The position numbers were made by a program, and so were the translations under genes. A stretch of DNA of 64,000 nt, taken from a candidate division WWE3 bacterium UBA1401. Lineage in GTDB: Bacteria; Patescibacteriota; WWE3; UBA101185; UBA10185. Positions within the stretch are counted from its first letter, which is position 1. The number at the start of each line of letters is the position of its first letter. The stretch is taken from the NCBI GenBank assembly GCA_002305115.1, contig DBQF01000001.1:373767-437766 (forward strand), in the 5' to 3' direction. A model generated the notes under the pieces. That model saw only the letters and a list, made by a program, of their open reading frames with translations. It searched no databases and was not told where the DNA came from. Positions 7,411 to 30,793 of the stretch are shown here, in pieces.

Positions 7411-8863
7411 GCTTTTACTTTTAATCTTTGGATTGGCTTTGCTTTTACGCTTGTTAGGTATAACCCATGGATTTCCTTTTATTTTTCACCCAGATGAACC
7501 CGCAGTTGTTAGAGAAGCTTTAGCCTTACGGTTCAACAAGAACCCTGGCCACTTTGATTGGCCCCATTTTTTTATCTATTTAAATTACTTTTTGTATATG
7601 CTTTTTGGAAAATTACGGACATTCGCAGAAATGTTAGGGCTAAAGGGTGTGTTACCGGGTATTATTTGGGATGATAATCTTATTTTTTATCTGCTTTCCC
7701 GAGTTTTTGCTGCTACTTTGGGTGCCGCCACTGTTTTTCCCATTTATTTGATCGGAAAAAAACTGTTTACTGAGAAGGCTGGTTTTCTTGCGGCGTTGGT
7801 GTTGTCACTGGTACCTTTTCATGCATGGCATTCGCACTATGCCTTAATTGATGTGCCCATGGTTTTCTGGCTTTCCTGGTCTTTATACTTTTCTGCTAAG
7901 CTTTATTTTGAATCTAAACCTGTTAATTACGTATTAGCTGGGTTGTTTGCGGGGTTTGCTGCTTCTACCAAATATCATGGAGCGTTTGCCTTGCTTGCGG
8001 TTATATTTGCTCATGTGCTTAGAATACAAAATTCCCGTGATGAGAAATTAATAAGTTTTAAAGGCTTACATCTGTTAGGTTTGTCAGGCATGTTTTCCCT
8101 TGTGGGATTTGCCGCGACAACCCCCTTTTCAGTTTTTGATTTTGAAACATTTGTTCGAACAGATGGCCCCAAGGGTGCTTTGTGGCAATTTACCAACGTG
8201 GGAAAAGTTTCTCTCACAACTCAGTTTTGTCAATTAGTTTCAAACTTTCTGCATAAATTCCCAAATGATTTGAGTATTACTTTTCTAGTGGTTTATGCTG
8301 CTTCTGTTATTAAGGTTATCAAAGATAGGAAGCTTAATGTATGGGTGTTGTTGGCGCTACCTTCGCTGCTTTTGTTTTTTTATATTTCCGGCTTTGAAAA
8401 AGATAGATCGCACTATTTCATGGTAGCTTATCCCTTTTTTGTGGTGCTTGTAGGAGCTATGATAGCAGTTTTGTTAACAAAGTTTCATCGGTATGCACCG
8501 CTAGTGGCAACGTTAGTTTTTGCTCTGCCTTTATATTTATGTATCAGAAATGCCTATATTTTCATGCAGACTGATACCAGGGTAATACTTTATGACATGC
8601 TGAAAGATACACCAACAGGTAGTATTATTGTTTATGACGGCGGAGATCTAACGGAGGTTATGACCATTTTTCCAGACGAAACAGTTACTCGGTATAGGAC
8701 TGATAAGGTTATAGACTTTCCGGCCAACCAGACTCATTATTTTATTCAATCTGCTGATGATAAGAGTACGTCGGCTACTGTCTTTGACAATGCTGTTATA
8801 AAGGCCACTATTCCTAACAAGTTGCGTCGTGGACCCTCTATAACTATTTTTGAAATTCTTTAG
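7394..8863 (+). CDS. GT39/GT83-like (ArnT/PMT_2-type) phospholipid-carrier-dependent glycosyltransferase
   Basis: 489 aa. LRLLGITHGFPFIFHPDEPAVV (a DE motif in the first loop) is typical of the PMT_2 family. The protein is polytopic with a soluble C-terminus. Confidence 0.8.
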   Translation: MKRHIKLLLLIFGLALLLRLLGITHGFPFIFHPDEPAVVREALALRFNKNPGHFDWPHFFIYLNYFLYMLFGKLRTFAEMLGLKGVLPGIIWDDNLIFYLLSRVFAATLGAATVFPIYLIGKKLFTEKAGFLAALVLSLVPFHAWHSHYALIDVPMVFWLSWSLYFSAKLYFESKPVNYVLAGLFAGFAASTKYHGAFALLAVIFAHVLRIQNSRDEKLISFKGLHLLGLSGMFSLVGFAATTPFSVFDFETFVRTDGPKGALWQFTNVGKVSLTTQFCQLVSNFLHKFPNDLSITFLVVYAASVIKVIKDRKLNVWVLLALPSLLLFFYISGFEKDRSHYFMVAYPFFVVLVGAMIAVLLTKFHRYAPLVATLVFALPLYLCIRNAYIFMQTDTRVILYDMLKDTPTGSIIVYDGGDLTEVMTIFPDETVTRYRTDKVIDFPANQTHYFIQSADDKSTSATVFDNAVIKATIPNKLRRGPSITIFEIL

Positions 8864-10457
8864 TATGCTTAAGCTTGTGAAAAAATTACAGCTTGAACTG
8901 GCGGTTCTTATAATCTTTGTGGCATCGCGTGTTCCCCACCTTGGCTACGACATTTTTAATACAGATGTTTGGAAATGGAAAGCCCGCACTTACAACTTTG
9001 GTAGTGGGGTTTTTGGTTTAGATTTTGCAGAGACTATTCAGAAGTACCATCCGGGGGTAGTTCTGATGTGGATAGGTACATTTGCGGTCAAGGTTTTTAA
9101 CCTGTTTTATAGTTTTGATGGCGCTGATAATGAATTAGCTCTAATTTTTAAGCTCCACTTTGTTCAGAAACTGTGTGTTGTGATAGTTATAGGCATAACT
9201 ATGGCATTTATTTTTTATGCACTTAGACAGTTATTAGGACTAAAGTATGCGTGTATAGCAGTTTTTCTACTAGCCATAGACCCGTTTTATGTGGCACTTA
9301 CTCGCGTTTTTCATCTAGAGGGGCTTATGTCCACTTTTATGTTAGCTTCGTTTGTATGGTTATACTGGTATCTAAAAGCTTTTCAAAAACACCAGCTTAT
9401 ACTGTCAGCCATTTTTGCCGGGTTGTCTATTCTTACGAAGACATCGAGTCTGTTTTTAGTGCCCTTTGCTGGGCTGGTTTTATTGATTGAGCATTTTATT
9501 TACAAAACCAAGCCGATTAAGTTTCTAGCCTCAACTTTTGGTTTGTGGTTAGGCATAGTTGCTTTAACTTTTGTTTTACTGTGGCCAGCTATGTGGACAA
9601 ATGCCGCAGATGTTTTTACTACTTTGTATAGAGGGATCTTTTCCATTGGTGTAGAGCAGGGTCATGAGCAGGTTTATTTTGGCAGGGTTATGAATGACCC
9701 TGGCATGGGTTTCTATTTTGTTGTGTTGGCATTAAAATCCTCAATTTACTTTTTGCCTGGTTTAGTTGGCTTTGTGTTCTTACTGATTACCCGAAAACTT
9801 TCTATAAAAGACAAACAGTTTGCTTTACACGCGCTTTTATTTGGTGTTTTCTATACTATAGAACTTTCTTTATCTTCTAAGAAATTAGACAGATATATTT
9901 TACCCACTTTACTGAGCTTTACACTGATTTCTACCTTTTTTTACAGGTGGCTTTGGGCAACACTTAGGTTTTATTTGCTGCTGTTATTTTTACCAGCATT
10001 ACTAATTTTGGCTAGAGTACATCCCGATTATTTTTCTTACTTTAGCCCTTATTTTGGGGGATTACGTACAGGTATTACTATTTTGGAACCTAAGTGGATG
10101 ATTGGTGCACGTGGTATTTCCGACTATGTATATTATTATAAAACCACACATCAGTTTGAAGACGTGGGTAATGGGGAAACTGTAGATAGCCTGAAGGCTG
10201 ACGCACTAAAGAAAAAGTTGTTGGTAGGATTTCAGGAGAAGTACTATGCCCAGATCTGGCCATTTGTAAGGGCAGTTGGGGCCGAGACAATTGTAAAAGA
10301 TCTAACCCCACATGCCCGAATGGCCAATATTTTCATTTATCCCGTGTGGAATGATGATTCTTATCTTGAAGATCGTTTTTTGATTAGACCTGTGGGCGAG
10401 ATAAGTTTACGGGGTGTGACTTTATACCGAGTTTATGAACGCTATGAACATCATTAA
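8850..10457 (+). CDS. GT-C-type polytopic membrane glycosyltransferase, paralog of 5872..7410
   Basis: 535 aa. It shares IQKYHPGVVLMW, IDPFYVALTRVFHLEG, ILTKTSS, GVEQGHEQVYFG and SKKLDRYILP in the same order as the equivalent blocks in 5872..7410. Confidence 0.75.
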   Translation: MKFFSMLKLVKKLQLELAVLIIFVASRVPHLGYDIFNTDVWKWKARTYNFGSGVFGLDFAETIQKYHPGVVLMWIGTFAVKVFNLFYSFDGADNELALIFKLHFVQKLCVVIVIGITMAFIFYALRQLLGLKYACIAVFLLAIDPFYVALTRVFHLEGLMSTFMLASFVWLYWYLKAFQKHQLILSAIFAGLSILTKTSSLFLVPFAGLVLLIEHFIYKTKPIKFLASTFGLWLGIVALTFVLLWPAMWTNAADVFTTLYRGIFSIGVEQGHEQVYFGRVMNDPGMGFYFVVLALKSSIYFLPGLVGFVFLLITRKLSIKDKQFALHALLFGVFYTIELSLSSKKLDRYILPTLLSFTLISTFFYRWLWATLRFYLLLLFLPALLILARVHPDYFSYFSPYFGGLRTGITILEPKWMIGARGISDYVYYYKTTHQFEDVGNGETVDSLKADALKKKLLVGFQEKYYAQIWPFVRAVGAETIVKDLTPHARMANIFIYPVWNDDSYLEDRFLIRPVGEISLRGVTLYRVYERYEHH

Positions 10458-11718
10458 ACTGTTCAGGAAAAATCAGCTGCTATCGGGAACTCTTATTGTT
10501 ACGGTTGGTTCCTTTCTTGGCAGTGTCTTCAGCTATTTGTTGCAGCTGTTTTTGGGTCGTAACCTGACAGTTGCGCAATATGGATTGTTTAACGCTTTAT
10601 TATCCTTATCGGTTATTATCTCCGTATTTAATGGTGCTCTTTCCACATCGCTTATTAAAGCTGTGTCTGAACTTAAGGCTCATGAACACTATGGTGTAAT
10701 AACCAAATTATTCAGACAACTCTCTTTACTGGCGCTAGCAGGCGGCATGGTGTTCTTTCTGCTTATTTTATTGTTTAGGCATTCTTTTGCTAAGTTCTTG
10801 CACACAGGTGAAAGTACACTTTTTATAATATTTGGTGTTTATATAGGCATTACGCTGCTGGGGATAATTGCACCTGCTTTCTTGCAGGGGCTGCTAAGAT
10901 TTAAAGCTTATGCCTTCTGGCTTGTTCTTACCAGTGTCTTGCGGTTTCTGTTTCCCGTGCTTTTGGTTTTTGTGGGTTTTGAAGTAAAGGGGGTATTTTT
11001 AGGCATAGCCTTTTCTGTGATTTGTTCTTATCTTGCAGCTGCTTTCTTATTAAGGCGTGATTTTCAAGAAGGGTTTACGGATAAACTGCATAGATATTAC
11101 AAAAAAATACTGATCTTTGCTGGGCCCGTGCTGTTTGTACACTTGGGGTTAACAATCTTAAACAATGCCGATGTGGTTTTAGTTAAGCACTATTTTGATG
11201 CCGATCTGGCGGGTATTTATTCTGGGACAGTTACTCTAGGAAAGATCTTGCTTTTTGGTGCTGGTACTGTAGGTGTGGTCATGTATCCACAAATTGCCGC
11301 AGCTTATGCTAGAAAAGAAGATTATTATGCCAAAATCAAGCCATTTCTGCTTCTTCAGACTGCAGTTGTTGTTCTTGGGCTTGTGGCCTTTGTATTTTTC
11401 CCTAAAGTGTTGACCTTAACGATGTTTGGCAGCAGGTATTTGGATTCTGTAGAATATCTGCCGGGGTTTTCGGTATTTATTGCGTTTTATATCTTAGCTA
11501 ATTTTTTGACATTATTCTTTCTGGCAATTGAAAAAGTAAAGGTGTTTGTTTTGCACATAAGCGCTGTAATACTGCAGCTAGTTTTGATTGCCACATACCA
11601 CGCGGATTTAAATCAGGTTATTTTTATGAATGTAGCTGTTTCCGGACTATTGCTTTTAAGTTTAGTTGGTTACTTTTTTAATAGTCGAAGCCGTGTGGGT
11701 GCTTCTCATACCACTTGA
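10435..11718 (+). CDS. Wzx-type flippase (MOP superfamily), second copy
   Basis: 427 aa and hydrophobic throughout, with a flippase-like N-terminus. The 3' end overlaps the 3' end of galE by 41 nt on the opposite strand. Confidence 0.75.
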   Translation: MNAMNIIKLFRKNQLLSGTLIVTVGSFLGSVFSYLLQLFLGRNLTVAQYGLFNALLSLSVIISVFNGALSTSLIKAVSELKAHEHYGVITKLFRQLSLLALAGGMVFFLLILLFRHSFAKFLHTGESTLFIIFGVYIGITLLGIIAPAFLQGLLRFKAYAFWLVLTSVLRFLFPVLLVFVGFEVKGVFLGIAFSVICSYLAAAFLLRRDFQEGFTDKLHRYYKKILIFAGPVLFVHLGLTILNNADVVLVKHYFDADLAGIYSGTVTLGKILLFGAGTVGVVMYPQIAAAYARKEDYYAKIKPFLLLQTAVVVLGLVAFVFFPKVLTLTMFGSRYLDSVEYLPGFSVFIAFYILANFLTLFFLAIEKVKVFVLHISAVILQLVLIATYHADLNQVIFMNVAVSGLLLLSLVGYFFNSRSRVGASHTT

Positions 11719-12679: not shown

Positions 12680-12685
12680 AGTATA

Positions 12686-12691
12686 GTTATA
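12686..12691 (-). promoter_or_regulatory. -10-like TATAAC box 6 nt upstream of the galE ATG
   Basis: The minus strand reads cttTATAACtatactATG. Confidence 0.35.
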
Positions 12692-12725
12692 AAGCTAGCA
12701 TAAAATTTGCCCAAAACAAAACCTA

Positions 12726-13535
12726 ATGTTGGTTTCAATCATAGTTCCTGCCTACAAACAAGAGAAGACTATAAAAAAGGATATCCAGTGTATCTGTAAT
12801 GTTATGCGTCAAACTCGTTGGCAGTTTGAAGTAATTGTGGTGGTAGATGGCTTTTTGGATGATACCTATGATAAAGCTAAGGAATTAGAGAAGGAAGACA
12901 AAGTGGTTACTGTGGTTGGTTACAAGACGAATAGAGGAAAGGGTTATGCTGTCAGATATGGTATGGCGCGAGCAAGGGGTGATTATATAGCTTTTATTGA
13001 TGCCGGTATGGAAATTAATCCAAATGGTATTTCGTTGCTTTTAGAGCATATGCAGTGGTATGACGCTGACGTCATGGTAGCAAGCAAGCGGCATCCCGCC
13101 TCAAGGGTAAAGCTTTCCAGTATGCGCAAAATATATAGTTGGGGCTACTACTTACTTGTAAAACTACTTTTTGGTCTACGTATTTCAGATACTCAAGCCG
13201 GATTAAAAATCTTCAAACGGGAAGTACTACTTAAGGTTTTGCCCAGGTTATTAGTTAAGGATTTTGCCTTTGACATAGAGCTTTTAGCCGTGGCAAATCG
13301 ACTAGGTTTTACCCGAATTTACGAAGGCCCCGTAGAAATGACTTTGGATTTTTCGGTGGGATCAAAAATCAAGAAAGATGTGTTTTTGTTCCTAAACCCT
13401 ACTATTCGGGGTATGTTAATAGATACGTTTGCTGTGTTTTATCGTATCCATTTGTTGAGGTATTATGATGACGCAAACAAACGTAAGTGGGTATTTGATA
13501 AAGAACTACAGATGAGGGTTAATACAGGTGAATAA
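12726..13535 (+). CDS. GT2 glycosyltransferase
   Basis: MLVSIIVPAYKQE N-terminus, VVVDGFLDDT, AFIDAGME (DxD-like) and a 269 aa length. Confidence 0.85.
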   Translation: MLVSIIVPAYKQEKTIKKDIQCICNVMRQTRWQFEVIVVVDGFLDDTYDKAKELEKEDKVVTVVGYKTNRGKGYAVRYGMARARGDYIAFIDAGMEINPNGISLLLEHMQWYDADVMVASKRHPASRVKLSSMRKIYSWGYYLLVKLLFGLRISDTQAGLKIFKREVLLKVLPRLLVKDFAFDIELLAVANRLGFTRIYEGPVEMTLDFSVGSKIKKDVFLFLNPTIRGMLIDTFAVFYRIHLLRYYDDANKRKWVFDKELQMRVNTGE

Positions 13536-13537
13536 CT

Positions 13538-14551
13538 ATGCACAGCTTTAGCGTTATTATCCCTGTTAGAAGCTATAATGCTTTTCTAGAGGAAAATATT
13601 GCTGCCCTTAAGAAACTAACTTACCCCAAGTTTGAAGTACTCATTGTTTTTGATGAAAATCCCCATCTAGATTTCGCAGATTCGCGCTTCAAGATCCTTG
13701 TTTCCGGCCGGAAAAGCCCCGGAGAAAAAAGAAACATTGGGGCTTCTGCTGCTGTTGGCAACGTTTTGGCTTTTTTGGATGATGATGCCTACCCCAGAGA
13801 AGATTGGTTAGCGTGTGCAAACGAGTTATTTGATAAATATTCTTTATATGCACTAGGGGGTCCATCCCTTACTCCTAAGTCTGCACCTTTTGCTGAAAAA
13901 ATGTCTGGAGTAATACTGGAATCTATTTTAGCAAGTGCCAGCATAGTTCATAGATATAAGCCCTGTAAAGAGATGTTTGTAGACGATTACCCCACTGTTA
14001 ACTTATTTATTAAAAAAGATGCTTTTATGGCAGTGGGGGGTTTTTGTACTGACTTCTGGCCGGGCGAAGATACCAAGTTGTGTTTGGATCTTGTAGAACA
14101 GACAGGCAAGAAATTTATGTACCATCCAAATCCTATTGTGTATCACCATCGCAGACAATTCTTATTACCTCATCTTAAGCAAATTTCTAGATATGGAAGT
14201 CACCGCGGTCAGTTTGCGCGTATCTTTCCCCGGACGTCACGTGTGCCCCGTTACTTCATTCCTTCTATTTTCGTTTTAGGCTTAATTTCTGGTCCATTCT
14301 TAGCTAATTTATGGTTGCCATTCGGGTTTATTTTTTATAGTACTTTGTGGCTCTATACTTTAGTTCTACTTGGATTTTCGCTAAATACAGTTTTTAAAGA
14401 GAAAAACGTTATGGCAGGTCTATACTTTTTTTCAGGTGTTTTATTAACACATATTGTGTATGGCATAAACTTCATTGTTGGATTTGTTAAAAGACCCAGA
14501 TTACAATTAAGGGTGTACGATAAAGCTACCGGTAATTATTTAGGAGGTTAA
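13538..14551 (+). CDS. GT2 glycosyltransferase with C-terminal membrane segments
   Basis: FSVIIPVRSYN, AFLDDDAYP (DxD) and GEDTKLC motifs. The C-terminal ~90 aa are hydrophobic. Confidence 0.8.
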   Translation: MHSFSVIIPVRSYNAFLEENIAALKKLTYPKFEVLIVFDENPHLDFADSRFKILVSGRKSPGEKRNIGASAAVGNVLAFLDDDAYPREDWLACANELFDKYSLYALGGPSLTPKSAPFAEKMSGVILESILASASIVHRYKPCKEMFVDDYPTVNLFIKKDAFMAVGGFCTDFWPGEDTKLCLDLVEQTGKKFMYHPNPIVYHHRRQFLLPHLKQISRYGSHRGQFARIFPRTSRVPRYFIPSIFVLGLISGPFLANLWLPFGFIFYSTLWLYTLVLLGFSLNTVFKEKNVMAGLYFFSGVLLTHIVYGINFIVGFVKRPRLQLRVYDKATGNYLGG

Positions 14552-14554
14552 TTT

Positions 14555-14746
14555 ATGAAAGTAATTATTAATAAAGATCTATGCGTAGGGTGCGGTAGCT
14601 GTGTGGTTATTGCTCCGGAAGTATTTGAATTTGATGGTGAAGTTAGTAAAGTAAAAGAAGGTGTGGATTTAGCAAGTTATATAGTATCAATTAAGAAAGC
14701 TGCAGAAGCTTGCCCCTCGGGCGCTATACAGCTAGAGGAGGAATAA
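14555..14746 (+). CDS. small single-cluster [4Fe-4S]/[3Fe-4S] ferredoxin
   Basis: 63 aa with CVGCGSC ... ACP cysteine pattern. A strong SD (TAGGAGGT) lies upstream. Confidence 0.85.
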   Translation: MKVIINKDLCVGCGSCVVIAPEVFEFDGEVSKVKEGVDLASYIVSIKKAAEACPSGAIQLEEE

Positions 14747-14747
14747 C

Positions 14748-16232
14748 ATGAAAGTAGTAGTTGGATATCCGCCTATTGAAACCACAAAGGGTACTCCGCT
14801 TCTTTCGCAGAACAGACAGTTTCAGTATTTTCATACTCCAACGTATATCTATCCAATGGTTCCTGCTTTTGCGGCTACATTAGCTAAAGAAAAAGGTTAC
14901 GACGCTATTTGGATGGATGGTATTGCAGAAAAGCAGACTTATCAGGAGTGGCTTGATGTACTGATTTCAGAGAAACCGGATGTTCTGATGCTGGAAACTA
15001 AGGCGCCTGTGGTAAAGAAGCACTGGAAAATTATCAACGAATTAAAAGAAAAGATGCCAGATATGAAGATCATTATTGTTGGTGATCACGTAACCTTCTT
15101 GCCCCAGGAGTCTTTAGAAAATTCCCAAGTAGATTTTGTTATTACCGGGGGTGACTATGATTTCGTTTTATCAGATTTGTTAGATTACCTGACAAAAGCA
15201 ACACCTATGCCAAAAGGTGTGTGGGGTAGAAATACGGATGGTACTTTTTGGAATACGGGCCCTGCAGATTTGCATCATAACCTGGATGATTTGCCGTTCA
15301 TTGACCGCGATTTAACCAAGTGGAAGCTGTATGCGTATGAAAACGGCAATTTCAAATATAAACCTGCCACTTATGTTTATTCCGGAAGGGAGTGTTGGTG
15401 GGGGAAATGCACCTTTTGTATCTGGAACCAGGTGTTATACCCACACGGTAGTTACAGGAGCTTTTCTGCTGAAAGACTCTTTGCCGAAGTAAAACATCTT
15501 GTAGATAACTATGGTGTAAAAGAAATATTTGATGACGCCGGATCTTTATTTATTGGGACTAAGCTTAAAAAATTTTGTGAACTTATGATTGAATCTGGCT
15601 ATAACAAAAAAGTGGTTTTTAGCTGTAATATGCGGTTAAATGCATTAACTCAAGATTATTATGACCTTATGGCTAAAGCGAACTTTAGATATATACTCTT
15701 TGGGTTGGAATCGGGTAATCAGGAGACACTGGATAGAATTGATAAAGGTATAAGAGTTGAAGAGATAGAACAAGGTGTCAAAATGGCCAAACAGGCAGGC
15801 CTCGAGCCGCATATAACCATAATGCTCGGGTATCCGTGGGAAACAGAAGAGATGGCTCAAAACACTATAAATTTGGCGAAAGAGTTATTCAAGAAGGGTT
15901 ATGTAGACACGATGCAGGCAACTATTACTATTCCATATCCGGGCACTAAGCTTTATCAGGAATGTCTTGAGAATGACTGGTTTTGTGTTGATCCAAAAGA
16001 CTATGAGGCCTTTGACATGCGTGGCCCGGTTATGAAGACACCGTATTCCAAAGAAAGACTGATGGAATTAACTCAGGCTTTGTACACAGCCTTTATGTCA
16101 CCGCAGTTTATACTTCGCAAGATTTTGTCTATTAGATCTGTTGATGATATTAAGTTTTTTGTGATGGCAGGTAGAAAGTTGATTGGGCATTTGTTGGATT
16201 TCAATAAGGCTGAGGAAAAAGCATCCCTATGA
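14748..16232 (+). CDS. B12-binding-domain radical SAM enzyme (class B-like)
   Basis: The N-terminal ~150 aa look like a B12-binding domain ([14 protein letters not shown]). The radical-SAM core carries [10 protein letters not shown] (C216, C221, C224) and a later GLESG motif. An SD (GAGGAGG) lies upstream, and only 1 nt separates it from the ferredoxin gene. Confidence 0.85.
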
Positions 16233-18457
16233 AAAAAGCATTAGTTACCGGATCTGCAGGTTTAATAGGCTCCGAAGCTGTGCGGTTTCTTGTTACACAA
16301 GGTTTTCAGGTTATTGGTATAGACAATGATATGAGAAAGTATTTCTTTGGAGATGAGGCCAGCACAGACTGGAACAGAAAGCTTTTGGAACAAGAGTACT
16401 CAGACTACAAACACTTTTCAACAGATATTAGGGGTAAATCAGCACTAGATGAAATTTTTGACCAACATAAGTTTGATTTGATAATACATACAGCTGCACA
16501 GCCCTCACATGATTGGGCTGCTAAAGAGCCTTTAACAGACTTTTCTGTAAATGCTTTAGGAACACTCAATTTACTAGAATCCTTCAGAAACTATTGTCCG
16601 GAAGCGGTTTTTATTTTCACATCTACTAACAAAGTATATGGAGATACCCCAAATGAGCTTCCGCTGGTGGAACATGAAACCCGCTTTGAAATTTCACCAG
16701 ATCACAAGTATGCAAACGGTATAGATGAAACAATGTCTATTGATTTTTCTAAACATAGCATTTTTGGTGCTTCCAAAGTTGCTGCAGATATTATGGTGCA
16801 AGAATATGGTAGATACTTTGGGCTTAATACTGTCTGCTTTAGAGGCGGCTGTCTAACAGGTCCTTCCCATAGTGGTACTAAACTGCATGGCTTTCTTGCA
16901 TACCTAATTAAGTGTATTGCTGAAAGCAACCCTTATACGATTTTAGGTTATAAGGGTAAGCAAGTTAGAGACAATATTCATTCAGAAGACTTAATTTCTG
17001 CCTTTTGGGAATTTTATCAAAACCCCAGGCAGGGAGAAGTTTACAATATTGGTGGATCTCGCCACTCCAACGTTTCTATGATGGAAGCCATTGAGAAGAT
17101 AGAGCAGGCTTTTGGGCGCAAAGGAAATATTGATTATTCAGAACAAAACCGTATTGGCGATCACATTTGGTATGTGTCAGATGTATCAAAATTTCAGAAG
17201 CACTACCCTAAATGGCAGTATAAATATAATATAGATGACATAATAGAGGAAATTTGTACCTTTGGCCATTTTTCAATTCCTCAAGTTTCTAGCGTTGTGG
17301 TTTCAGAGATGGAATCCACATTCAGGCAGAAAATATTTGTGGCTTCGCACGTCACTGAGGGTTTTGGTGTAGTACAAGCCCTTAAAGCTTATTTAGTAAA
17401 AAGAAACCCAAGATTTGCTTTTGTAGAACATCCGTTTTCTTATTCGGGTATATCCGGGTCTCGAGTCAGTACCTTCAGATCTAGTTTGCCTTCCACTGAG
17501 GAAGCCAAGAAACAGACACGTAATGTTTTTTTGTCCTTCATTAGAGACTTTGTCTTGTCTATTTATTGGTGTTTTAAAAGAGGTAAGGATAGTACTGTTT
17601 TTGTTGGTGTAGATAGCCTAAATGCTTTGGCAGGGCTAGTACTTAAGAGGTTGGGTTTGAATTTTGAACTGGTTTACTATGCTCCAGACTATACTCCTAA
17701 CAGGTTTGATAATAAGTTACTGAATAAGATTTATCAGACAATAGATAGAGTTGTTTCTAAAGGAGCTGATTATGTTTGGAATATTTCAGAACGAATGCAG
17801 CAGATGCGCGCCGATTTTGTAGAAGAAAGCCGAAATTTGTATGTGCCAAACGGAGTTTATCTAGATAAGGTAAACTTGGAAGCAAGAAAAGGTAGAGATA
17901 TTAATTCTTTAGTTATTTCAGAACATTTAACTAAAGGTAAAGGGCTTGAACTGGTGCTCGACTGCTTCGAGGATATCTTAAAGCTTAATGCTAACGCAAC
18001 TCTTTCTATTCTCGGTACAGGACCTGACGAAAGATATTTTAAAAGTCTAGTTGCCGAAAAACGTTTGCAAGATAAAATTTTCTTCTTAGGTAATGAAACT
18101 CCCGATATTTATCTTAATTATCTTGCAAAGTTTGGTATAGGGCTTTGTTTTAGAGAAGGAGGTGTGGAGAGCTTGGCCTATTATTCAGATCCTACTTCTG
18201 TAAAAGAGTTTCTTTCATGTGGAGTTCCTGTTATAGTAACTAGTAACCTATGGGTTTCGGTTGAGGTTGCAAGCGTACCACTTGGCAAAGCTATTGCGTT
18301 AACCAAATCTGATTTGCTTGATGCTTTAGGAAACCTCTGGCAAGATTCTGATTTATATGGCAAGGCGTCTCGGAATGGACCAGCCTTTAGTAATAAATTT
18401 TCTTGGGAGAAGATCTATCTTAGAGCATTTGCTCATCTTAAAAATTATGACCAATGA
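16229..18457 (+). CDS. fusion protein: N-terminal extended-SDR NAD-dependent sugar epimerase-like domain (CDP-paratose 2-epimerase-like) plus a C-terminal GT4-like glycosyltransferase domain
   Basis: TGSAGLIGS Rossmann motif and STNKVYGD are present, but FGASK replaces the expected YGxSK. The C-terminal ~380 aa are paralogous to the next gene and end with a GT-B C-lobe (ILGTGPDE...[11 protein letters not shown]). Confidence 0.8.
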
Positions 18458-19625
18458 CAAAAATCTGAAAGATCTAACCATAGCCATAGCTACTCATGAA
18501 TATTTCAAGGGCAGCGCGCAAGAATTAAAAGATTACCTGCTGAAAATAAATGCTAATAGGGTAATATATGTTGCCCATAAGTTTTTTTACGCTAAAGATA
18601 GCACTTCTTACAGGGAACTGTATGACCATGGTGAGCTGGTAAGTAAGAAAGAATCACCCAAGATTTTTCCTAATGAATTTCTGCTTTACATTCGCGATGC
18701 TTTTTATAATCTTTATTACTTTCTTACTGTAAAAGGTAGGATAGACCTGTTTGTAGGCTCAGATTCTTTCAACGCTATTTTTGGTCTTATCCTAAAAAAG
18801 CTTGGTAAGGTTGATCAAGTTGTCTTTTTCACTATTGACTATATTATGGAAGACAGGTTTAAGTTTGATATCTTGAACACTATCTACAAAAAAATGGATA
18901 GAATGGCATTTTGGGGCAGCGATTATACCTGGAATGTATCCGATAGAATGTCTAGGCAGCGCGTAGCTGAACTTGGCGAAAAAGCCAAAGAAAAAAAGCA
19001 GCTAGTAGCCCCTATTGGTATACCCTTAGAAGCTCGTAATATTTCGGTTGAAAGAAAAAATAATATTCTGGTTTATAGTGGTGGCTTGACCCCTCATTTT
19101 GGCCTAGAATTAACTGTTCAAGCCATGCCCGCGCTAGTAAAAAGATTTCCTGACGTAAAACTTCGTATTATTGGTGAAGGTGAAATAGGACCCAAACTTA
19201 AACAAATGGCAGAGGATCTGGGTGTATCTGCTAACGTTGAGTTTGTGGGTTATATTGATACTGCGAAAGAAAGAGAAAGGTGGCTTACTCTTCTGAAGGA
19301 AAGTACTTTAGGGTTGGCGCCTTATGAAGCAACAGAGAAGACATACAAAAAATTTTCAGATGTTACCAAACCTAAAGATTACATGTCTTGCGGATTGCCA
19401 GTTATTACAACTTCTGTTATTCCAATTTCTGAAGATATTCAACAGTATAATCTGGGAAGAGTTATAGAAGATAGTGTGCCCTCTTATGTGGAAAAAGTTT
19501 CTGAGTTACTTTTGAATGCTAATGAACGCATCGCGATTGAGAAAAACGTTTATGCCTATTCAGCTAATATGACTTGGGATGCAGTCTATAATAAGGTCTT
19601 TAGTGAGATGGATTTACAGGTGTAA
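18447..19625 (+). CDS. GT4-like glycosyltransferase, paralog of the C-terminal domain of 16229..18457
   Basis: The track ORF starts at 18357; ATG 18447 ([10 protein letters not shown]) overlaps the upstream stop by 11 nt. [19 protein letters not shown]...DYIMEDRF...[19 protein letters not shown] aligns with [19 protein letters not shown]...DYTPNRF...[19 protein letters not shown]. Confidence 0.8.
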
Positions 19626-19627
19626 AA

Positions 19628-20347
19628 ATGCTTACCGACATTTTCAGAAAGTTGAAAATGTATGGGCCAAAAAAATCTTTAGTTTTTCTTTACTACAAGA
19701 TAAGAGAACTTTTGTATTATCAACTGTTACACAATTCTTTTAGTCAACACGGTGAAGATCTTGTTATTGATGCCTTGTTAGGTAATAAAGACCATGGGTT
19801 TTATGTGGACATAGGTGCACACGATCCCCATCTATTTAGTAATACAAAGAGGTTCTATAGAAAAGGTTGGCGAGGTATTAATATAGAGCCAGATGCACAT
19901 TTAATAGAAAAGTTCAAAGCATCTAGGCCTGATGATATTAATCTAAATATTGGAATAAGTAATATCCCAGGCACTCTCACTTTCTATAGGATGTTTCCTG
20001 CTACTTTATCTACATTTTCAGAAGAAGCTGTAAAGAGTTATCTAGACCAAGGTTACGAGCTGGTAGAAAAGCTTCCTGTTCCTGTAAAGCCCTTACGTAC
20101 CGTTTTACAAACTTATGTAAAGAATGCGGAAATAGATTTCATGTCTATAGATACAGAGGGATTTGAGTCCCACGTTTTGGCTAGTAACGATTGGCAAAAA
20201 TTTAGGCCGACAGTAATTTGTATAGAGTCAGAAAATCCCCGTGGATCTGAAGTTGGACCTATTACTCAGAAGTTGTTAGCTTTGGGGTATGTGAAGCATT
20301 TAGATAATGGTATTAATTCAATTTTTGTTGTAAGAAACCATGCTTAG
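19628..20347 (+). CDS. FkbM-family SAM-dependent methyltransferase
   Basis: HGEDLVIDALLGNKDHGFYVDIGAHDP...GINIEPD is the typical FkbM-family core. Confidence 0.8.
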   Translation: MLTDIFRKLKMYGPKKSLVFLYYKIRELLYYQLLHNSFSQHGEDLVIDALLGNKDHGFYVDIGAHDPHLFSNTKRFYRKGWRGINIEPDAHLIEKFKASRPDDINLNIGISNIPGTLTFYRMFPATLSTFSEEAVKSYLDQGYELVEKLPVPVKPLRTVLQTYVKNAEIDFMSIDTEGFESHVLASNDWQKFRPTVICIESENPRGSEVGPITQKLLALGYVKHLDNGINSIFVVRNHA

Positions 20348-21260
20348 TATAAATATACTATGTTGTCCTATTTGTAGAGGTTCGTTAACAAACGAGTCAA
20401 CAAACCTGAGGTGTTCAGATTGCAATGCTTCTTACAGCGTAGCTGATGGTATAGTCAGAGCCTTATTACCCAACCAAAGTGCTGATCTAGCTTTGTCTTT
20501 GTCTAGATGGGATGCCATCTACGCACAGAGTTTAGCAACCGGTAGTTATTTGGCTAACTTACAGGTATATAAAGAGACATACTATGAAGATTTACTGGCA
20601 CAGATTACTGAAGAAACTGATTTAAAGGATAAAGTTTATTTGGAGGTAGGTTGCGGTCCTTTTTATTTTGGTCACCTTATAGCGCGAGACTGTAAACTAG
20701 TTATTGGAATAGATTTTTCTTTCAATGCACTGGTTATAGCTAAAAAACTGTTTGACTCTGCTGGCATAACTAACTACATACTTATTCAAGGTGATGTTTT
20801 GCAACTTCCCTTGAAAGACCACAGTGTGGATTTGGTTTATGGTGGAGGAGTAATGGAACACTTTAATAATTCTCAGGCCTACCTTAATGGTCTTTACACA
20901 GTTTTAAGGCCTGGGGGAATTGTTTTTAACACTGTCCCATTTTTGAACATAGGCAGTTTAACTTACAGACAGCTTTGGGGTAACATTCCTAATGTGCCTG
21001 TACTAAAACAAATCTTTGAGTTCATTCACATTAAACTATTTGGGGGCAGATTCATGAGATTTGGCTATGAACTGGCCTTTCTTGTTTCCACTTTGTGCAA
21101 ACTCCATAAGAAGGTTGGTTTTTCCGAAGTATCCGTTTCCCATTTCAAAGTAGCGCTTGTGTTTGAAGCCTTGCCACGTTTTTTACGTAGACCCTTTGTT
21201 TGGTTGGCCAATAATTCTAAGGCTTTCTGGCCCATGGTAAAGGTAGTAGCAAAGAAATGA
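20340..21260 (+). CDS. class I SAM-dependent methyltransferase with an N-terminal Trm112-like zinc ribbon
   Basis: CCPICRGSL...LRCSDCNASYSVADGIV zinc ribbon, followed by LEVGCGPFYFG (motif I). Confidence 0.8.
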   Translation: MLSINILCCPICRGSLTNESTNLRCSDCNASYSVADGIVRALLPNQSADLALSLSRWDAIYAQSLATGSYLANLQVYKETYYEDLLAQITEETDLKDKVYLEVGCGPFYFGHLIARDCKLVIGIDFSFNALVIAKKLFDSAGITNYILIQGDVLQLPLKDHSVDLVYGGGVMEHFNNSQAYLNGLYTVLRPGGIVFNTVPFLNIGSLTYRQLWGNIPNVPVLKQIFEFIHIKLFGGRFMRFGYELAFLVSTLCKLHKKVGFSEVSVSHFKVALVFEALPRFLRRPFVWLANNSKAFWPMVKVVAKK

Positions 21261-21973
21261 GTACAGATCATTATAAAGTACAAAGTGATTATTTTGATAA
21301 AGTTGCTCTGACTTTGGGTGACAAGTTCGATTCTCCTACAAACCATTTTGAGGTTGATAACTTTCTCGCAACTATAGGAGTAGAGTACGCCACCAGGAAC
21401 GTGCTGGACGTAGGGGCTGGCACTGGCAGGTACTCACTCCTGCTATTGCAAAAAGGCTACACTGTTACAGCTACAGACATTTCGGAAAAGTCGCTACAAG
21501 TTTTAACCACTCGAGCAGAAGCTTTAAATTTGGCTGACAGACTTACCACTAAGGTTACAGATATGGAGACACCGGAGTTTAACAAGGAATTTGATCTGGT
21601 TTTTAGCGTTAACTTACTCCATCACGTGGAACATATGACTACAGTTTTTAGTAGTATGGTTGCCGCTACAAAGGTTGGAGGTAAAGTTGCTGTACTAGAA
21701 GAAAACCCTATAAATCCCTCATTTTATCCTTTTCATATTCTAAATGGCCGTTGGCAGTACGAGAAAGGTATATATAAATGCACACGGGGTAATTTACTAA
21801 ATTTGTTTAGGAACAGCCATCTAACAGACATTCAGGTAACAAATTACTTATACTTTCCTACCAGATTTGTACTTAAGTATCCGTTTTTACACAGATTAAA
21901 CACATTTTTGAGCCACGTGCCCATACTCAGGTATTTGTCTTTGTTTCAGATTTTATATGGCAAAAAACTCTAG
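21257..21973 (+). CDS. class I SAM-dependent methyltransferase
   Basis: VLDVGAGTGRYSLLLLQKGYTVTATDIS (motifs I/II). There is an ATGA overlap with the upstream gene. Confidence 0.8.
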   Translation: MSTDHYKVQSDYFDKVALTLGDKFDSPTNHFEVDNFLATIGVEYATRNVLDVGAGTGRYSLLLLQKGYTVTATDISEKSLQVLTTRAEALNLADRLTTKVTDMETPEFNKEFDLVFSVNLLHHVEHMTTVFSSMVAATKVGGKVAVLEENPINPSFYPFHILNGRWQYEKGIYKCTRGNLLNLFRNSHLTDIQVTNYLYFPTRFVLKYPFLHRLNTFLSHVPILRYLSLFQILYGKKL

Positions 21974-22967
21974 AGTTGAGTTATCAATTATTATTGTCAC
22001 TTATAACAATGCGAACTGGTTGCCAGATTGCTTAACTTCATTGCAAGCTCAGATATTTACTGATTACGAGCTTATTGTTGTTGATAACGCTTCTTCTGAT
22101 AATTCTATTGCTTTAGTACAAAAATATTTTCCTGATTCTAAGGTATTCGCACTGGATGAAAATGTTGGGTTTAGCAAGGCTAACAATCTTGGAGTGAAAA
22201 ACGCTCACGGTAACAGAGTACTGTTGCTAAATAGTGATACCCGAATGTGCTCACCTGGATTTTTGAGTTCTTTCCTAAAGGAACAGCAGAAAAATCAACT
22301 CGATATATGTAACCCGCTTATTTTAAATGCTCAAGGTGTAGACCCCTTAGCCGGGCTTTATATGGGGATGGACATTGTAGGTTTTCCTGGCCCCAGCCCA
22401 AAACTTTTTTATATAGATGGGTGTTGTCTATTAACGTATAAGCATGTGTATGAAAGGTTAGGAGGTCTAGATGAGGACTATTTCATGTATAGTGAAGATA
22501 TTGACTTCAGCTGGCGTGCCCGGTTACTCAATTTGCGGTTAGGAATATGCAGAAGTTCAGCTATTTTACACTATGGGGGTGGTAGTACAGAAAGTACCCG
22601 ATCTGGTACCAGGGGAGTTTATAAAGTACCTGCATTTAGAAGGTACGAAGTTGAGAAAAATATTTTATCTAACCTTCTAAAAAATTATGGAGTCTACAAT
22701 CTTACCTGGGCGATACCTTTGTTTCTGGTCTTAAATTTTTCCGAAGCATTATTTTATTTAATGCTAGGGAAGTTATGGCTTTCCCGCAAAGTATTATTGG
22801 CTGTTTGGTGGAACGTACGTAATATAAACCACACTCTCAAGAAGCGCAGGCAAGTGCAGCAAACCCGGCAAGTTAGTGACTCTACACTTTTAAAAAACGT
22901 TCATTTAAAACTAAATAAAGTCCAAGCCCTTATAAATATTGGAGGGATCCCAAAGTTTACTAACTAG
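21957..22967 (+). CDS. GT2 glycosyltransferase (rhamnosyltransferase-like subfamily)
   Basis: LSIIIVTYNN, VVDNASSDNS, GFSKANNLG and EDYFMYSEDIDFSWRA motifs. Confidence 0.85.
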   Translation: MAKNSRVELSIIIVTYNNANWLPDCLTSLQAQIFTDYELIVVDNASSDNSIALVQKYFPDSKVFALDENVGFSKANNLGVKNAHGNRVLLLNSDTRMCSPGFLSSFLKEQQKNQLDICNPLILNAQGVDPLAGLYMGMDIVGFPGPSPKLFYIDGCCLLTYKHVYERLGGLDEDYFMYSEDIDFSWRARLLNLRLGICRSSAILHYGGGSTESTRSGTRGVYKVPAFRRYEVEKNILSNLLKNYGVYNLTWAIPLFLVLNFSEALFYLMLGKLWLSRKVLLAVWWNVRNINHTLKKRRQVQQTRQVSDSTLLKNVHLKLNKVQALINIGGIPKFTN

Positions 22968-22968
22968 T

Positions 22969-23910: not shown

Positions 23911-23925
23911 AAGCTTATAAGCTGT

Positions 23926-30791: not shown

Positions 30792-30793
30792 CC

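What the first reader, a model, noticed from the sequence alone, without database searches (positions are those of the whole stretch)
14555..16232. Dedicated ferredoxin plus B12-radical-SAM enzyme with a Cx4Cx2C triad inside a glycan operon
A 63-aa ferredoxin gene (CVGCGSC...CP) ends 1 nt before a 494-aa protein. That protein has an N-terminal B12-binding-like domain and a radical-SAM core. Both genes have strong SD sequences.

The only cysteine triad at the expected position is [10 protein letters not shown] (C216/C221/C224, nt 15393-15419). That is Cx4Cx2C rather than the canonical CxxxCxxC.

Class B radical-SAM enzymes typically methylate unactivated carbons, including in aminoglycoside and other sugar pathways. 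Here the pair is embedded between GT2 genes and an epimerase-GT4 fusion. That placement suggests radical C-methylation or another radical modification of a sugar or lipid carrier, with its own electron donor. Cobalamin dependence would also be notable in a genome that may be metabolically minimal.
Basis: partly seen in the sequence, partly recalled or inferred. Interest (0 to 1): 0.6.

Follow-up and report, generated by a model that had tools for sequence, protein, structure and literature searches.

The report
HpnJ-like radical-SAM enzyme, CPR glycan cassette
A small iron-sulfur ferredoxin and a radical-SAM enzyme with a B12-type domain sit in a cell-surface sugar gene cassette conserved across hundreds of ultra-small (CPR) bacteria; the enzyme most likely remodels a lipid-linked sugar, but its chemistry is untested.

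Summary
A 63-aa four-Cys ferredoxin (14555-14746) ends 1 nt before a 494-aa protein (14748-16232). That protein has a B12-binding-type N-domain and a radical-SAM core. Its only Cys triad is C216/C221/C224 (CX4CX2C).

The triad is invariant in 91 homologs and aligns with the canonical CX3CX2C of relatives, with a one-residue insertion. The spacing is not unprecedented: OxsB has CX4CX2C, and relatives here range from CX3 to CX16.

The protein belongs to a large uncharacterised group (relatives in 490 species genomes; best matches WWE3, Roizmanbacteria and Microgenomates). The nearest curated family is HpnJ, the proposed hopanoid sugar ring-contraction enzyme, but the score is far below cutoff (191 vs 577.6 bits) and no hopanoid genes are in the window.

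It is the most conserved gene of a cassette: flippases, three PMT_2 GT-C genes, GT2a, GT2b, [ferredoxin], rSAM, GT2d. The epimerase-GT4 neighbour lies in a variable island.

The ferredoxin is optional: 46 of 71 cassettes have one, and nearly all are three-Cys ([3Fe-4S]-type), unlike this window's.

Best reading: radical modification of a lipid-linked sugar. C-methylation remains a live rival. Cobalamin use is unproven.

The parts
3494..11718 (+). Conserved upstream half of the cassette: MOP flippase (3494-4969), LPG_synthase_TM flippase-like protein (4956-5894), three PMT_2 GT-C glycosyltransferases (5857-7410, 7394-8863, 8850-10457) and a second MOP flippase (10435-11718).
   Evidence: Pfam. 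NCBIfam matches the flippase-like domain TIGR00374, with a weak HpnL match of 34.9 bits against a cutoff of 195.65. The same order is found in most of the 80 related loci.
12726..13535 (+). GT2a, 269 aa, resembling polyprenyl-phosphate sugar synthases.
   Evidence: Pfam Glycos_transf_2. The PDB sequence hits covering most of the protein are dolichol-P-mannose synthase 5mlz (residues 1-224), GtrB 5ekp and ArnC; the top-scoring hit, chondroitin synthase, covers only residues 3-115. Found in 63 related loci at median 61% identity. Apparently fused to GT2b in several loci, for example L002.
13538..14551 (+). GT2b, 337 aa, a GT2 with a hydrophobic C-terminal region (about residues 244-272 by a crude hydrophobicity scan). 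It is the most constant neighbour of the rSAM gene.
   Evidence: Pfam Glycos_transf_2 and Glyco_trans_2_3. NCBIfam ranks MftF-like > EpsD > TIGR04283 > AglG, with no HpnI match. Lies upstream of the rSAM in 71 loci. GT2s with the same NCBIfam hit profile flank the CX3 and CX7 relatives.
14542..14547 (+). Shine-Dalgarno AGGAGG for the ferredoxin gene.
   Evidence: Read directly from the sequence.
14555..14746 (+). Single-cluster ferredoxin, 63 aa, CxxCxxC...CP (predicted [4Fe-4S]).
   Evidence: Pfam Fer4_13, Fer4_15 and Fer4_19. Closest solved proteins are Thermotoga maritima ferredoxin 1rof/1vjw (E 6e-9) and Pyrococcus furiosus ferredoxin. Orthologs occur in 46 of 71 cassettes, nearly all CxxAxxC...CP.
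14735..14741 (+). Shine-Dalgarno GAGGAGG for the rSAM gene, lying inside the 3' end of the ferredoxin gene.
   Evidence: Read directly from the sequence.
14748..16232 (+). HpnJ-like class B (B12-binding-domain) radical-SAM protein, 494 aa.
   Evidence: Pfam. NCBIfam best hit is HpnJ at 191.2 bits, below the cutoff. AF2 model has pLDDT 91 and pTM 0.91. Foldseek hits are MgmA, AprD4, TsrM, OxsB, CysS and TokK.
14748..15212 (+). N-terminal Rossmann-type (B12-binding-like) domain, residues about 1-155. The beta1-alpha1 'His loop' carries an invariant QNRQFQxF hairpin (residues 21-28). G112-D113-H114 lies after beta4. G134-G135-D136 lies before alpha5.
   Evidence: Secondary structure of the model. 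Conservation in A1. Alignment with relatives. Motif definitions from PMC9204698.
15393..15419 (+). CX4CX2C cluster motif (C216, C221, C224; CWWGKCTFC).
   Evidence: Invariant in 91 sequences. Aligns with the CX3CX2C of relatives. Inteins in relatives are inserted at the first or third Cys.
15387..15875 (+). Radical-SAM core (Pfam PF04055, residues 214-376).
16229..29770 (.). Variable island inserted between the rSAM gene and GT2d: epimerase-GT4 fusion, GT4, FkbM and two other methyltransferases, GT2, sulfotransferase (- strand), an 811-aa ORF with no Pfam hit, and an AftD-like GT-C.
   Evidence: Pfam. These genes are found in few related loci. In many loci GT2d abuts the rSAM gene directly.
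29763..30791 (+). GT2d, 342 aa, the conserved downstream partner of the rSAM gene in related loci.
   Evidence: Pfam. Found in 40 loci at median 62% identity. It overlaps or abuts the rSAM gene in at least 10 loci.

Best explanation
The 494-aa protein is a class B-type radical-SAM enzyme from an uncharacterised, HpnJ-related group. The group is conserved in WWE3, Roizmanbacteria, Microgenomates and other Patescibacteria.

Proposed mechanism:
1. C216, C221 and C224 bind the radical-SAM [4Fe-4S] cluster.
2. The cluster is reduced, here probably by the co-translated four-Cys ferredoxin.
3. The reduced cluster cleaves SAM to a 5'-deoxyadenosyl radical.
4. [quoted passage not shown]
5. The modified glycolipid is extended by GT2d, flipped by the MOP or LPG_synthase_TM-type proteins, and used by the three PMT_2 GT-C transferases to decorate the envelope.

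I commit to an HpnJ-like non-methylating rearrangement (ring contraction to a carbocycle) as the single most likely chemistry, at about 0.25-0.3. C-methylation is close behind. The confidence of 0.4 is for the general statement (a radical-SAM enzyme acting on the sugar of a lipid-linked glycan intermediate).

Shown: the genes, the domains, motif conservation, the fold and the synteny. Inferred: the substrate, the chemistry, the ferredoxin's role and cobalamin use.
For: - **Cluster motif.** The Cys triad is invariant in 91 homologs. It aligns with the canonical motif of relatives and of MgmA 9ccb. Inteins in relatives target exactly these cysteines.
- **Nearest family.** HpnJ is the best NCBIfam model for the window protein: 191 bits over residues 33-460. 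It is also the best model for the seven scanned relatives that gave any hit at E<=1e-40, rising to 470 bits; three scanned relatives gave none.
- **Shared clade feature.** The long beta1-alpha1 loop with an S-x-x-R motif is shared with the HpnJ-like relatives and is absent from other class B proteins.
- **Fold.** The model is confident (pLDDT 91). Full-length matches are class B enzymes.
- **Synteny.** GT2a-GT2b-[fdx]-rSAM-GT2d, preceded by flippases and three PMT_2 genes, recurs in most of the 80 best loci. The pattern scan found relatives in 490 species genomes.
- **Conservation.** The rSAM is the most conserved cassette gene (median 64% identity).
- **Substrate clues.** GT2a resembles Dpm1, GtrB and ArnC.
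- **Context of relatives.** GT2b-like GT2s or glycan genes also flank relatives with CX3 and CX7 motifs and a DPANN archaeal relative.
- **Coupling.** Junctions of 1-4 nt and overlaps indicate translational coupling.
- **Ferredoxin client.** The rSAM is the only redox enzyme in the conserved core, so it is the only evident client for the ferredoxin.
Against: - No biochemical data exist for this group or for HpnJ itself; HpnJ's ring contraction is inferred from a knockout.
- The HpnJ score is far below the equivalog cutoff.
- No hopanoid genes, HpnI-type GT2 or HpnK-type deacetylase were found in the window.
- In a published similarity network HpnJ co-clusters with the methylases Fom3 and MoeK5, so homology does not exclude methylation.
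- The ferredoxin is missing from about a third of cassettes. Elsewhere it is mostly a three-Cys [3Fe-4S]-type, whose usual potentials look too high to reduce a radical-SAM cluster.
- The lipid-linked nature of the substrate is inferred only from GT2 and GT-C family resemblances.
Confidence: 0.4

Rival explanations
1. The enzyme is a cobalamin-dependent radical C-methyltransferase, as most characterised class B enzymes are. It would methylate an unactivated carbon of a sugar in the lipid-linked glycan, in the manner of MoeK5 or GenK, with the ferredoxin supplying electrons.
For: - B12-binding Pfam domain above cutoff, and a Rossmann N-domain.
- Structural matches to the methylases MgmA, TsrM, CysS and TokK.
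- The review places HpnJ with Fom3 and MoeK5 in the similarity network.
- NCBIfam gives weaker but real hits to PhpK, the MCR glutamine methylase and HpnR.
Against: - The best curated matches are the non-methylases HpnJ and BchE.
- The beta4 Gly-Gly and alpha5 Gly-Glu cobalamin motifs are altered to G-D and G-G-D.
- The Pfam B12 score is marginal (32.8 against 32.1).
- No cobalamin genes are in the 64-kb window.
- Ordinary SAM methyltransferases are already present in the variable island.
Confidence: 0.3
2. The enzyme is a cobalamin-independent radical enzyme with a vestigial B12-like domain, like AprD4. It would catalyse dehydration/deoxygenation, epimerisation or oxidation of a sugar.
For: - AprD4 (6fd2) is among the top sequence and structure matches.
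- The cobalamin motifs are altered.
- From my own knowledge, not tested here: the host lineage is genomically reduced and unlikely to make B12.
Against: - The AprD4 NCBIfam score is only 48 bits, against 191 for HpnJ.
- The N-domain is very strongly conserved, including an invariant His-loop hairpin. This argues for a functional cofactor or substrate site rather than a vestige.
Confidence: 0.15
3. The enzyme modifies the lipid carrier or a membrane lipid tail (cyclisation, cross-linking or methylation, as in GrsA/B, ladderane rSAM or HpnR) rather than the sugar.
For: - Weak NCBIfam hits to HpnR (70 bits) and to the ladderane lipid rSAM (59 bits).
- Class B enzymes are common in lipid modification (PMC13459092).
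Against: - These scores are much lower than for HpnJ.
- The conserved partners are all glycosyltransferases and flippases. No lipid-synthesis genes occur in the core.
Confidence: 0.1
4. The ferredoxin is not the reductant of the radical-SAM cluster. It would serve another role: an electron acceptor for a product radical, a cobalamin redox partner, or a partner of something else. The rSAM would then be reduced by a housekeeping donor. (This rival concerns the ferredoxin only and is compatible with any of the chemistries above.)
For: - 45 of 46 orthologous cassette ferredoxins are CxxAxxC...CP, the [3Fe-4S] motif. Typical potentials are -85 to -203 mV.
- 25 of 71 cassettes lack the gene.
- In 15 loci it is 0.8-6.6 kb from the rSAM gene while still directly following GT2b.
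Against: - In this window the protein has four Cys and is closest to low-potential [4Fe-4S] ferredoxins.
- It is translationally coupled to the rSAM gene.
- No other redox enzyme is in the conserved core.
Confidence: 0.3

Closest known systems
HpnJ (TIGR03471), hopanoid-associated B12-binding radical-SAM protein. It is proposed to contract the glucosamine ring of BHT-glucosamine to the cyclitol ether.
   Same: - Best-scoring curated family, aligned almost end to end.
- Shares the long beta1-alpha1 loop motif and the G-x-H and G-x-Y-D variants of class B motifs.
- Both sit with GT2 genes and an LPG_synthase_TM/HpnL-type membrane protein.
   Different: - Scores 191 bits against a cutoff of 577.6.
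- Has CX4CX2C, whereas the HpnJ-like relatives scored here have CX3CX2C.
- No hopanoid genes, no HpnI-type GT2 and no HpnK in the window.
- The host lineage is CPR.
OxsB (PDB 5UL2-5UL4), a cobalamin-dependent radical-SAM ring-contraction enzyme of oxetanocin biosynthesis.
   Same: - Has a CX4CX2C cluster motif (PMC9204698).
- Class B architecture, non-methylase, acts on a sugar ring.
- Foldseek E 8.5e-19.
   Different: - Only about 15% identity.
- OxsB has an extra N-terminal domain (729 aa).
- It acts on a soluble nucleotide.
MgmA (9ccb), AprD4 (6fd2), TsrM (6wte), TokK and CysS: solved class B-type structures.
   Same: Two-domain fold of a Rossmann N-domain plus a partial TIM barrel. These are the top structural matches. 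MgmA and AprD4 are also the only PDB sequence hits.
   Different: - 13-20% identity.
- MgmA has CX3CX2C at the aligned position, one residue shorter.
- Substrates are proteins, an aminoglycoside, tryptophan or carbapenem precursors.
Calditol synthase Cds (Sulfolobus), a radical-SAM enzyme that converts a hexose head group on GDGT lipids to a cyclopentyl polyol.
   Same: It is a concept-level analogue: radical remodelling of a sugar already attached to a membrane lipid (PMC13459092).
   Different: It is archaeal and acts on a lipid head group rather than a glycan carrier.
Three-component polyprenyl-phosphate glycosylation systems (GT2 synthase + flippase + GT-C transferase, such as ArnC/ArnT, GtrB/GtrA/Gtr, CsbB/GtcA/YfhO), and on-carrier sugar editing as by DprE1/DprE2. 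The systems are named from my own knowledge.
   Same: - GT2a resembles Dpm1, GtrB and ArnC.
- Three PMT_2 GT-C proteins and flippases are in the cassette.
- A related rSAM locus contains YfhO and PMT_2.
   Different: No known system of this kind includes a radical-SAM enzyme. The acceptor and the sugar are unknown.
Thermotoga maritima and Pyrococcus furiosus single-cluster ferredoxins
   Same: About 60 aa, CxxCxxC...CP, best PDB matches (E 6e-9 and 3.5e-8).
   Different: Orthologs in related cassettes are longer (80-95 aa) and carry Ala at the second ligand position.

Membership tests
Radical SAM superfamily (PF04055) | Pfam domain above the gathering score. | tested here: met
   74.1 bits against 29.5, residues 214-376.
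Radical SAM superfamily (PF04055) | Three-Cys motif binding the [4Fe-4S] cluster (canonical CX3CX2C). | tested here: met
   Present as the variant CX4CX2C. C216, C221 and C224 are invariant in 91 sequences and aligned with the canonical triad of relatives. Cluster binding itself was not tested.
Radical SAM superfamily (PF04055) | Reductive cleavage of SAM to the 5'-deoxyadenosyl radical. | not testable with these tools
   Needs an anaerobic enzyme assay.
Class B (cobalamin-dependent) radical SAM | N-terminal Rossmann-type B12-binding domain. | tested here: met
   PF02310 scores 32.8 bits against a cutoff of 32.1. The AF2 model has a five-strand alternating beta/alpha N-domain. Full-length Foldseek matches are cobalamin-bound TsrM, OxsB, TokK, CysS and MgmA.
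Class B (cobalamin-dependent) radical SAM | Gly(-Gly) on beta4 and Gly-Glu at the start of alpha5, which hold the DMB tail (PMC9204698). | tested here: inconclusive
   G112-D113 replaces G-G. G134-G135-D136 replaces G-E-G-E. Related HpnJ-like proteins have G-T-H and G-E-Y-D.
Class B (cobalamin-dependent) radical SAM | Binds and requires cobalamin. | not testable with these tools
   AprD4 has the same fold and matches about as well as the cobalamin-bound enzymes; that it works without cobalamin is from my own knowledge. No cobalamin genes are in the 64-kb window.
HpnJ (TIGR03471 equivalog) | Score at or above the curated cutoff of 577.6 bits. | tested here: not met
   191.2 bits.
HpnJ (TIGR03471 equivalog) | Hopanoid gene context (shc, hpnH, hpnI, hpnK). 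| tested here: not met
   No such families appear among Pfam and NCBIfam hits across the window. GT2b has no HpnI match even at E<=1.
HpnJ (TIGR03471 equivalog) | Ring contraction of a lipid-linked hexosamine. | not testable with these tools
   Even for HpnJ this is inferred from a knockout only.
Single-cluster [4Fe-4S] ferredoxin (Fer4_13 type) | Pfam domain above cutoff and a CxxCxxC(x)nCP motif. | tested here: met
   46.9 bits against 24.5. Cys 10, 13, 16 and 53-Pro. Best PDB hit is T. maritima ferredoxin. Motif rule from PMC6237146.
Dedicated rSAM reductase partner | Constant co-occurrence and adjacency with the rSAM gene. | tested here: not met
   Present in 46 of 71 cassettes. Separated from the rSAM gene by 0.8-6.6 kb in 15 loci.

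The most novel reading that the evidence does not exclude
WWE3, Microgenomates and related CPR bacteria may carry out HpnJ-type radical chemistry without hopanoids. A sugar on a polyprenyl-phosphate carrier would be ring-contracted to a carbocyclic (cyclitol-like) unit, or otherwise radically rearranged. It would then be exported and installed on the cell envelope by GT-C transferases.

The cassette ferredoxin is mostly a [3Fe-4S] type. It might act not as the cluster reductant but as the acceptor or relay of the electron from the product radical or from cobalamin.
Probability: 0.2. Interest if true: 0.75.

Novelty: new variant of a known kind. Interest (0 to 1): 0.45.

Why it matters
CPR/Patescibacteria depend on cell-surface contact with hosts, yet the chemistry of their envelopes is almost unknown.

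This cassette is among the more widely conserved envelope loci in WWE3 and Microgenomates-type genomes, and the radical-SAM enzyme is its most conserved gene. This implies that a chemically unusual sugar (rearranged, carbocyclic or C-methylated) is a core envelope component.

If cobalamin is truly needed, it adds a vitamin dependency to organisms thought to have minimal metabolism.

The group also extends the poorly understood HpnJ branch of class B radical-SAM enzymes into glycan, non-hopanoid contexts. It offers natural variation in cluster-loop length (CX3 to CX16) and in ferredoxin ligand set (three or four Cys) for mechanistic study.

Tried and rejected
1. **Ferredoxin fusions.** I asked whether the longer homologs (510-580 aa) are ferredoxin-rSAM fusions. 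They are not. The extra length is an internal insertion near residue 165 plus a C-terminal tail.
2. **Auxiliary cluster.** I asked whether C277, C293 and C406 form an auxiliary cluster. This is unlikely. C277 and C293 sit in positions conserved across ordinary class B relatives and are not arranged as a cluster motif.
3. **Four-Cys ferredoxin search.** A strict four-Cys regex found no ferredoxin in the related loci. Inspection showed the orthologs have Ala at the second position.
4. **AlphaFold database fold search.** The library was not available.
5. **Source genome.** An exact look-up of the window protein's contig, to identify the genome and search for cobalamin genes, found nothing on record.
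6. **Literature.** Searches combining Patescibacteria, WWE3 or CPR with HpnJ, cobalamin or B12-binding rSAM found nothing relevant.
7. **Bona fide HpnJ sequences.** A second homolog search seeded with the most HpnJ-like relative (P0184) aimed to retrieve named HpnJ sequences. None were named. The group comes from Omnitrophota, Margulisbacteria and DPANN/Thaumarchaeota MAGs.
8. **Calditol synthase paper.** PMC6305003 was not held.
9. **Rfam.** No RNA element, including no cobalamin riboswitch, was found in the window.
Full report
**Observation**

The two ORFs are exactly as described. The ferredoxin gene is 14555-14746 (63 aa). Its stop TAA at 14744-14746 is followed by one base and then the ATG of a 494-aa ORF (14748-16232). 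Both starts are preceded by GGAGG-type Shine-Dalgarno sequences at 6-7 nt. The rSAM stop overlaps the next start as ATGA.

Pfam calls the small protein a single-cluster ferredoxin (Fer4_13, 46.9 bits). The large protein matches Radical_SAM (74.1 bits, residues 214-376) and B12-binding (32.8 bits against a cutoff of 32.1, residues 43-134). The large protein has only seven cysteines: 216, 221, 224, 277, 293, 406 and 413. CWWGKCTFC (CX4CX2C, nt 15393-15419) is therefore the only possible cluster triad.

**Is the motif real and conserved?**

The protein has thousands of homologs. A word-indexed search returned 6321 hits at E<=1e-5 among 8000 scored candidates. The best 120 are 64-73% identical and, where named, come from Patescibacteria or WWE3.

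In an alignment of 91 of them, C216, C221 and C224 are invariant, as are W217 and W218. An exhaustive search of 1.84 billion cluster representatives gave 848 hits below 1e-30. Among these relatives the CxxC end of the motif is fixed, but the Cys1-Cys2 loop varies:
- three residues in the more HpnJ-like proteins (about 30% identity);
- four residues in this group;
- seven, nine, eleven or sixteen residues in others.

The solved methylase MgmA (9ccb) aligns its CX3CX2C to this motif with a one-residue gap. In several relatives, inteins are inserted immediately before the first or the third of these cysteines. Pfam confirms Intein_splicing plus LAGLIDADG domains. That is typical of intein homing to catalytic sites.

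The cysteines are thus the radical-SAM cluster ligands by every available sequence criterion. The spacing is not unprecedented, however. The cobalamin-dependent ring-contraction enzyme OxsB has CX4CX2C (PMC9204698).

**Fold and the cobalamin question**

An AlphaFold2 model built on the 91-sequence alignment is confident (pLDDT 91, pTM 0.91). It shows a five-stranded Rossmann N-domain followed by the radical-SAM barrel. Foldseek against the PDB returns these top hits:
- MgmA (E 6e-23)
- AprD4 (7e-22)
- TsrM
- OxsB
- CysS
- TokK

The second refutation condition (no B12-type fold) is therefore not met. Whether cobalamin is bound remains open, for four reasons:
- The Pfam score barely passes.
- The beta4 Gly-Gly and alpha5 Gly-Glu motifs that hold the cobalamin tail in solved class B enzymes appear here as G112-D113 and G134-G135-D136.
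- AprD4 matches as well as the cobalamin enzymes; from my own knowledge it works without cobalamin.
- No cobalamin-related gene or riboswitch occurs in the 64-kb window. The rest of the genome could not be reached.

The beta1-alpha1 'His loop' is 30 residues long and carries an invariant QNRQFQxF hairpin. A shorter S-x-x-R version of this loop is shared with HpnJ-like relatives and is absent from other class B proteins.

**Family placement**

No NCBIfam model reaches its cutoff. The best is HpnJ (TIGR03471) at 191 bits over nearly the full length, against a cutoff of 577.6. BchE follows at 104 bits, then various methylases at 60-100 bits.

Ten relatives were scanned at E<=1e-40. HpnJ was the best model for the seven that gave any hit, in a graded series of 153, 191, 251, 304, 339, 348 and 470 bits. 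Three (P0131, P0136, P0156) gave no hit at that threshold. The window protein is therefore an outlying member of an HpnJ-related radiation, not an HpnJ equivalog.

HpnJ is proposed, from a knockout, to contract the glucosamine ring of a hopanoid glycolipid to a cyclitol ether. It is listed with BchE and OxsB among class B non-methylases. In similarity networks, however, it co-clusters with the methylases Fom3 and MoeK5. Homology therefore does not settle rearrangement versus methylation.

**Genomic context**

The first 47 kb of the window is one large envelope-glycan region. A scan of one genome per species found relatives in 490 genomes. The best 80 loci are WWE3, Roizmanbacteria, Microgenomates and similar MAGs.

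I compared all window proteins with the ORFs of these loci. This shows a conserved cassette: MOP flippase, LPG_synthase_TM protein, three PMT_2 GT-C transferases, a second flippase, GT2a, GT2b, [ferredoxin], rSAM and GT2d.

| Cassette gene | Median identity to window protein |
|---|---|
| rSAM | 64% |
| GT2d | 62% |
| GT2a | 61% |
| GT2b | 51% |
| GT-C genes and flippases | 40-50% |

Further points:
- GT2a and GT2b appear to be fused in several loci, for example L002.
- GT2d overlaps or abuts the rSAM gene in at least ten loci.
- In the window, GT2d lies 13.5 kb downstream.
- GT2a resembles polyprenyl-phosphate sugar synthases: DPMS 5mlz, GtrB and ArnC.
- GT2b matches MftF-like, EpsD and AglG models, with no HpnI match.

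The link to GT2 and GT-C glycan genes extends beyond this group:
- A CX3 relative (43% identity) lies among four B12-rSAM paralogs, GT2s, PMT_2 and YfhO.
- A CX7 relative is overlapped by a GT2 with the same NCBIfam hit profile as GT2b.
- A 36%-identical CX4 relative (P0136) precedes a Bac_transf gene.
- A DPANN archaeal relative sits near a GT21-type GT2.

Three rumen/UBP3 loci carry the rSAM without the cassette, next to APS kinase and CotH genes.

**The ferredoxin**

Of 71 loci with both GT2b and the rSAM, 44 have a ferredoxin by motif search and two more by BLAST. About 25 have none, with GT2b abutting the rSAM gene.

The gene nearly always starts within about 160 nt of the end of GT2b. 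In 15 loci it is separated from the rSAM gene by 0.8-6.6 kb of variable genes. These include a glycoside-hydrolase-like protein, a GT4 and an FTR1 iron permease.

Forty-three of the 44 motif-search ferredoxins carry CxxAxxC...CP, and the two found by BLAST show the same Ala. Only the window and L024 have CxxCxxC...CP. According to PMC6237146 the former is the [3Fe-4S] motif, with typical potentials of -85 to -203 mV. The latter is the [4Fe-4S] motif, at -280 to -715 mV.

The window's ferredoxin is closest to the low-potential T. maritima and P. furiosus proteins. It is a credible reductant for the radical-SAM cluster. The predominance of three-Cys orthologs and the frequent absence of the gene mean that 'dedicated electron donor' is only partly supported. 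This remains unexplained.

**Most likely mechanism**

1. The CX4CX2C cluster is reduced, in this genome probably by the co-translated ferredoxin.
2. The reduced cluster cleaves SAM.
3. The 5'-deoxyadenosyl radical abstracts hydrogen from a sugar on a membrane-anchored intermediate made by GT2a and GT2b.
4. The product is extended, flipped and transferred by the GT-C enzymes.

On the strength of the HpnJ relationship I favour a non-methylating rearrangement (about 0.25-0.3). C-methylation follows at about 0.3 as a separate rival. Cobalamin-independent dehydration or epimerisation is at about 0.15, and lipid-tail modification at about 0.1. The genes, domains, motif conservation, fold and synteny are shown. 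The substrate, the chemistry, the ferredoxin's role and cobalamin use are inferred.

**Novelty and verdict**

No paper in the searchable library links CPR bacteria with HpnJ-like or B12-binding radical-SAM enzymes, and no curated family covers the group. It is a new variant of a known kind: a class B-type radical-SAM enzyme of the HpnJ branch, with a fixed CX4CX2C motif, in a non-hopanoid, polyprenyl-type glycan cassette.

These are the motif spacing, the ferredoxin and B12 dependence. The more interesting result is the breadth and conservation of the cassette. Interest is moderate (0.45).

Noticed in passing
Relatives P0122, P0123, P0124, P0125, P0126, P0154 (not in the window): Inteins, some with LAGLIDADG endonuclease domains, interrupt the radical-SAM cluster motif. 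In P0122, P0124, P0125 and P0126 the third motif Cys is the +1 extein residue. In P0123 the intein sits directly before the first Cys, and the spliced motif would be CX16CX2C.
   Followed up: yes
Relatives P0138, P0139, P0145, P0148, P0153: These are full-length relatives (35-42% identity) that have lost all three cluster cysteines. They may be non-catalytic paralogs.
   Followed up: partly
L083 (ENA ERZ27275891) 2252-12556; L089 (Omnitrophota MAG) 7001-15449; proteins P0250, P0206, P0177: B12-rSAM paralogs occur in arrays: four in a GT2/PMT_2/YfhO glycan cluster, and five in a row (a sixth follows after a small rSAM and a methyltransferase) in an Omnitrophota MAG. There are also giant fusions with up to five radical-SAM motifs in one 2331-aa protein.
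   Followed up: partly
window 38212-41163 (+): A 983-aa fusion of an O-antigen-ligase-type Wzy_C domain with a PMT_2 GT-C domain.
   Followed up: no
window 22969-23910 (-); L001, L002, L003, L006; L072 8409-9017: A sulfotransferase gene recurs within 2 kb downstream of the rSAM gene in several related loci and lies in the window's variable island. In the rumen/UBP3 loci, which lack the cassette, the rSAM gene lies close to an APS kinase gene, with a HEAT-repeat gene between them. This hints at sulfated products.
   Followed up: partly
L070 9050-9874, L071 3460-4278, L079 9080-9937: In Roizmanbacteria-type loci (L070, L071) an FTR1-family iron permease gene lies between the ferredoxin and the rSAM gene; a homologous ORF occupies the GT2b-rSAM gap in L079, where no ferredoxin was detected. 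Other loci have a ~330-aa glycoside-hydrolase-like gene (weak DUF4015/GH42 hits) at that position.
   Followed up: partly
window 49616-50047 (+): An IS200-like Y1 transposase gene lies between the DinB-type polymerase gene and an aminoacyl-tRNA synthetase gene.
   Followed up: no
window 23926-26361, 30779-32344, 32443-33291, 33381-34721 (+): Four sizeable ORFs (811, 521, 282 and 446 aa) inside the glycan region have no Pfam match at E<=1e-3.
   Followed up: no
window 1-64000: Almost all long ORFs are on the + strand, and GC skew is positive in all but one 2-kb bin (26-28 kb). This is consistent with one replichore and leading-strand gene orientation. GC content is 36-45%.
   Followed up: no
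window 14748-16232 compared with homologs P0003-P0101: The window protein is a short form. It lacks the ~20-30-residue insertion after about residue 165. It also lacks the C-terminal tail (consensus SPKFWxxAxKSxF), possibly amphipathic, that most homologs carry. Apart from its own database entry, nothing among 5.8 billion protein clusters exceeds 73% identity.
   Followed up: partly
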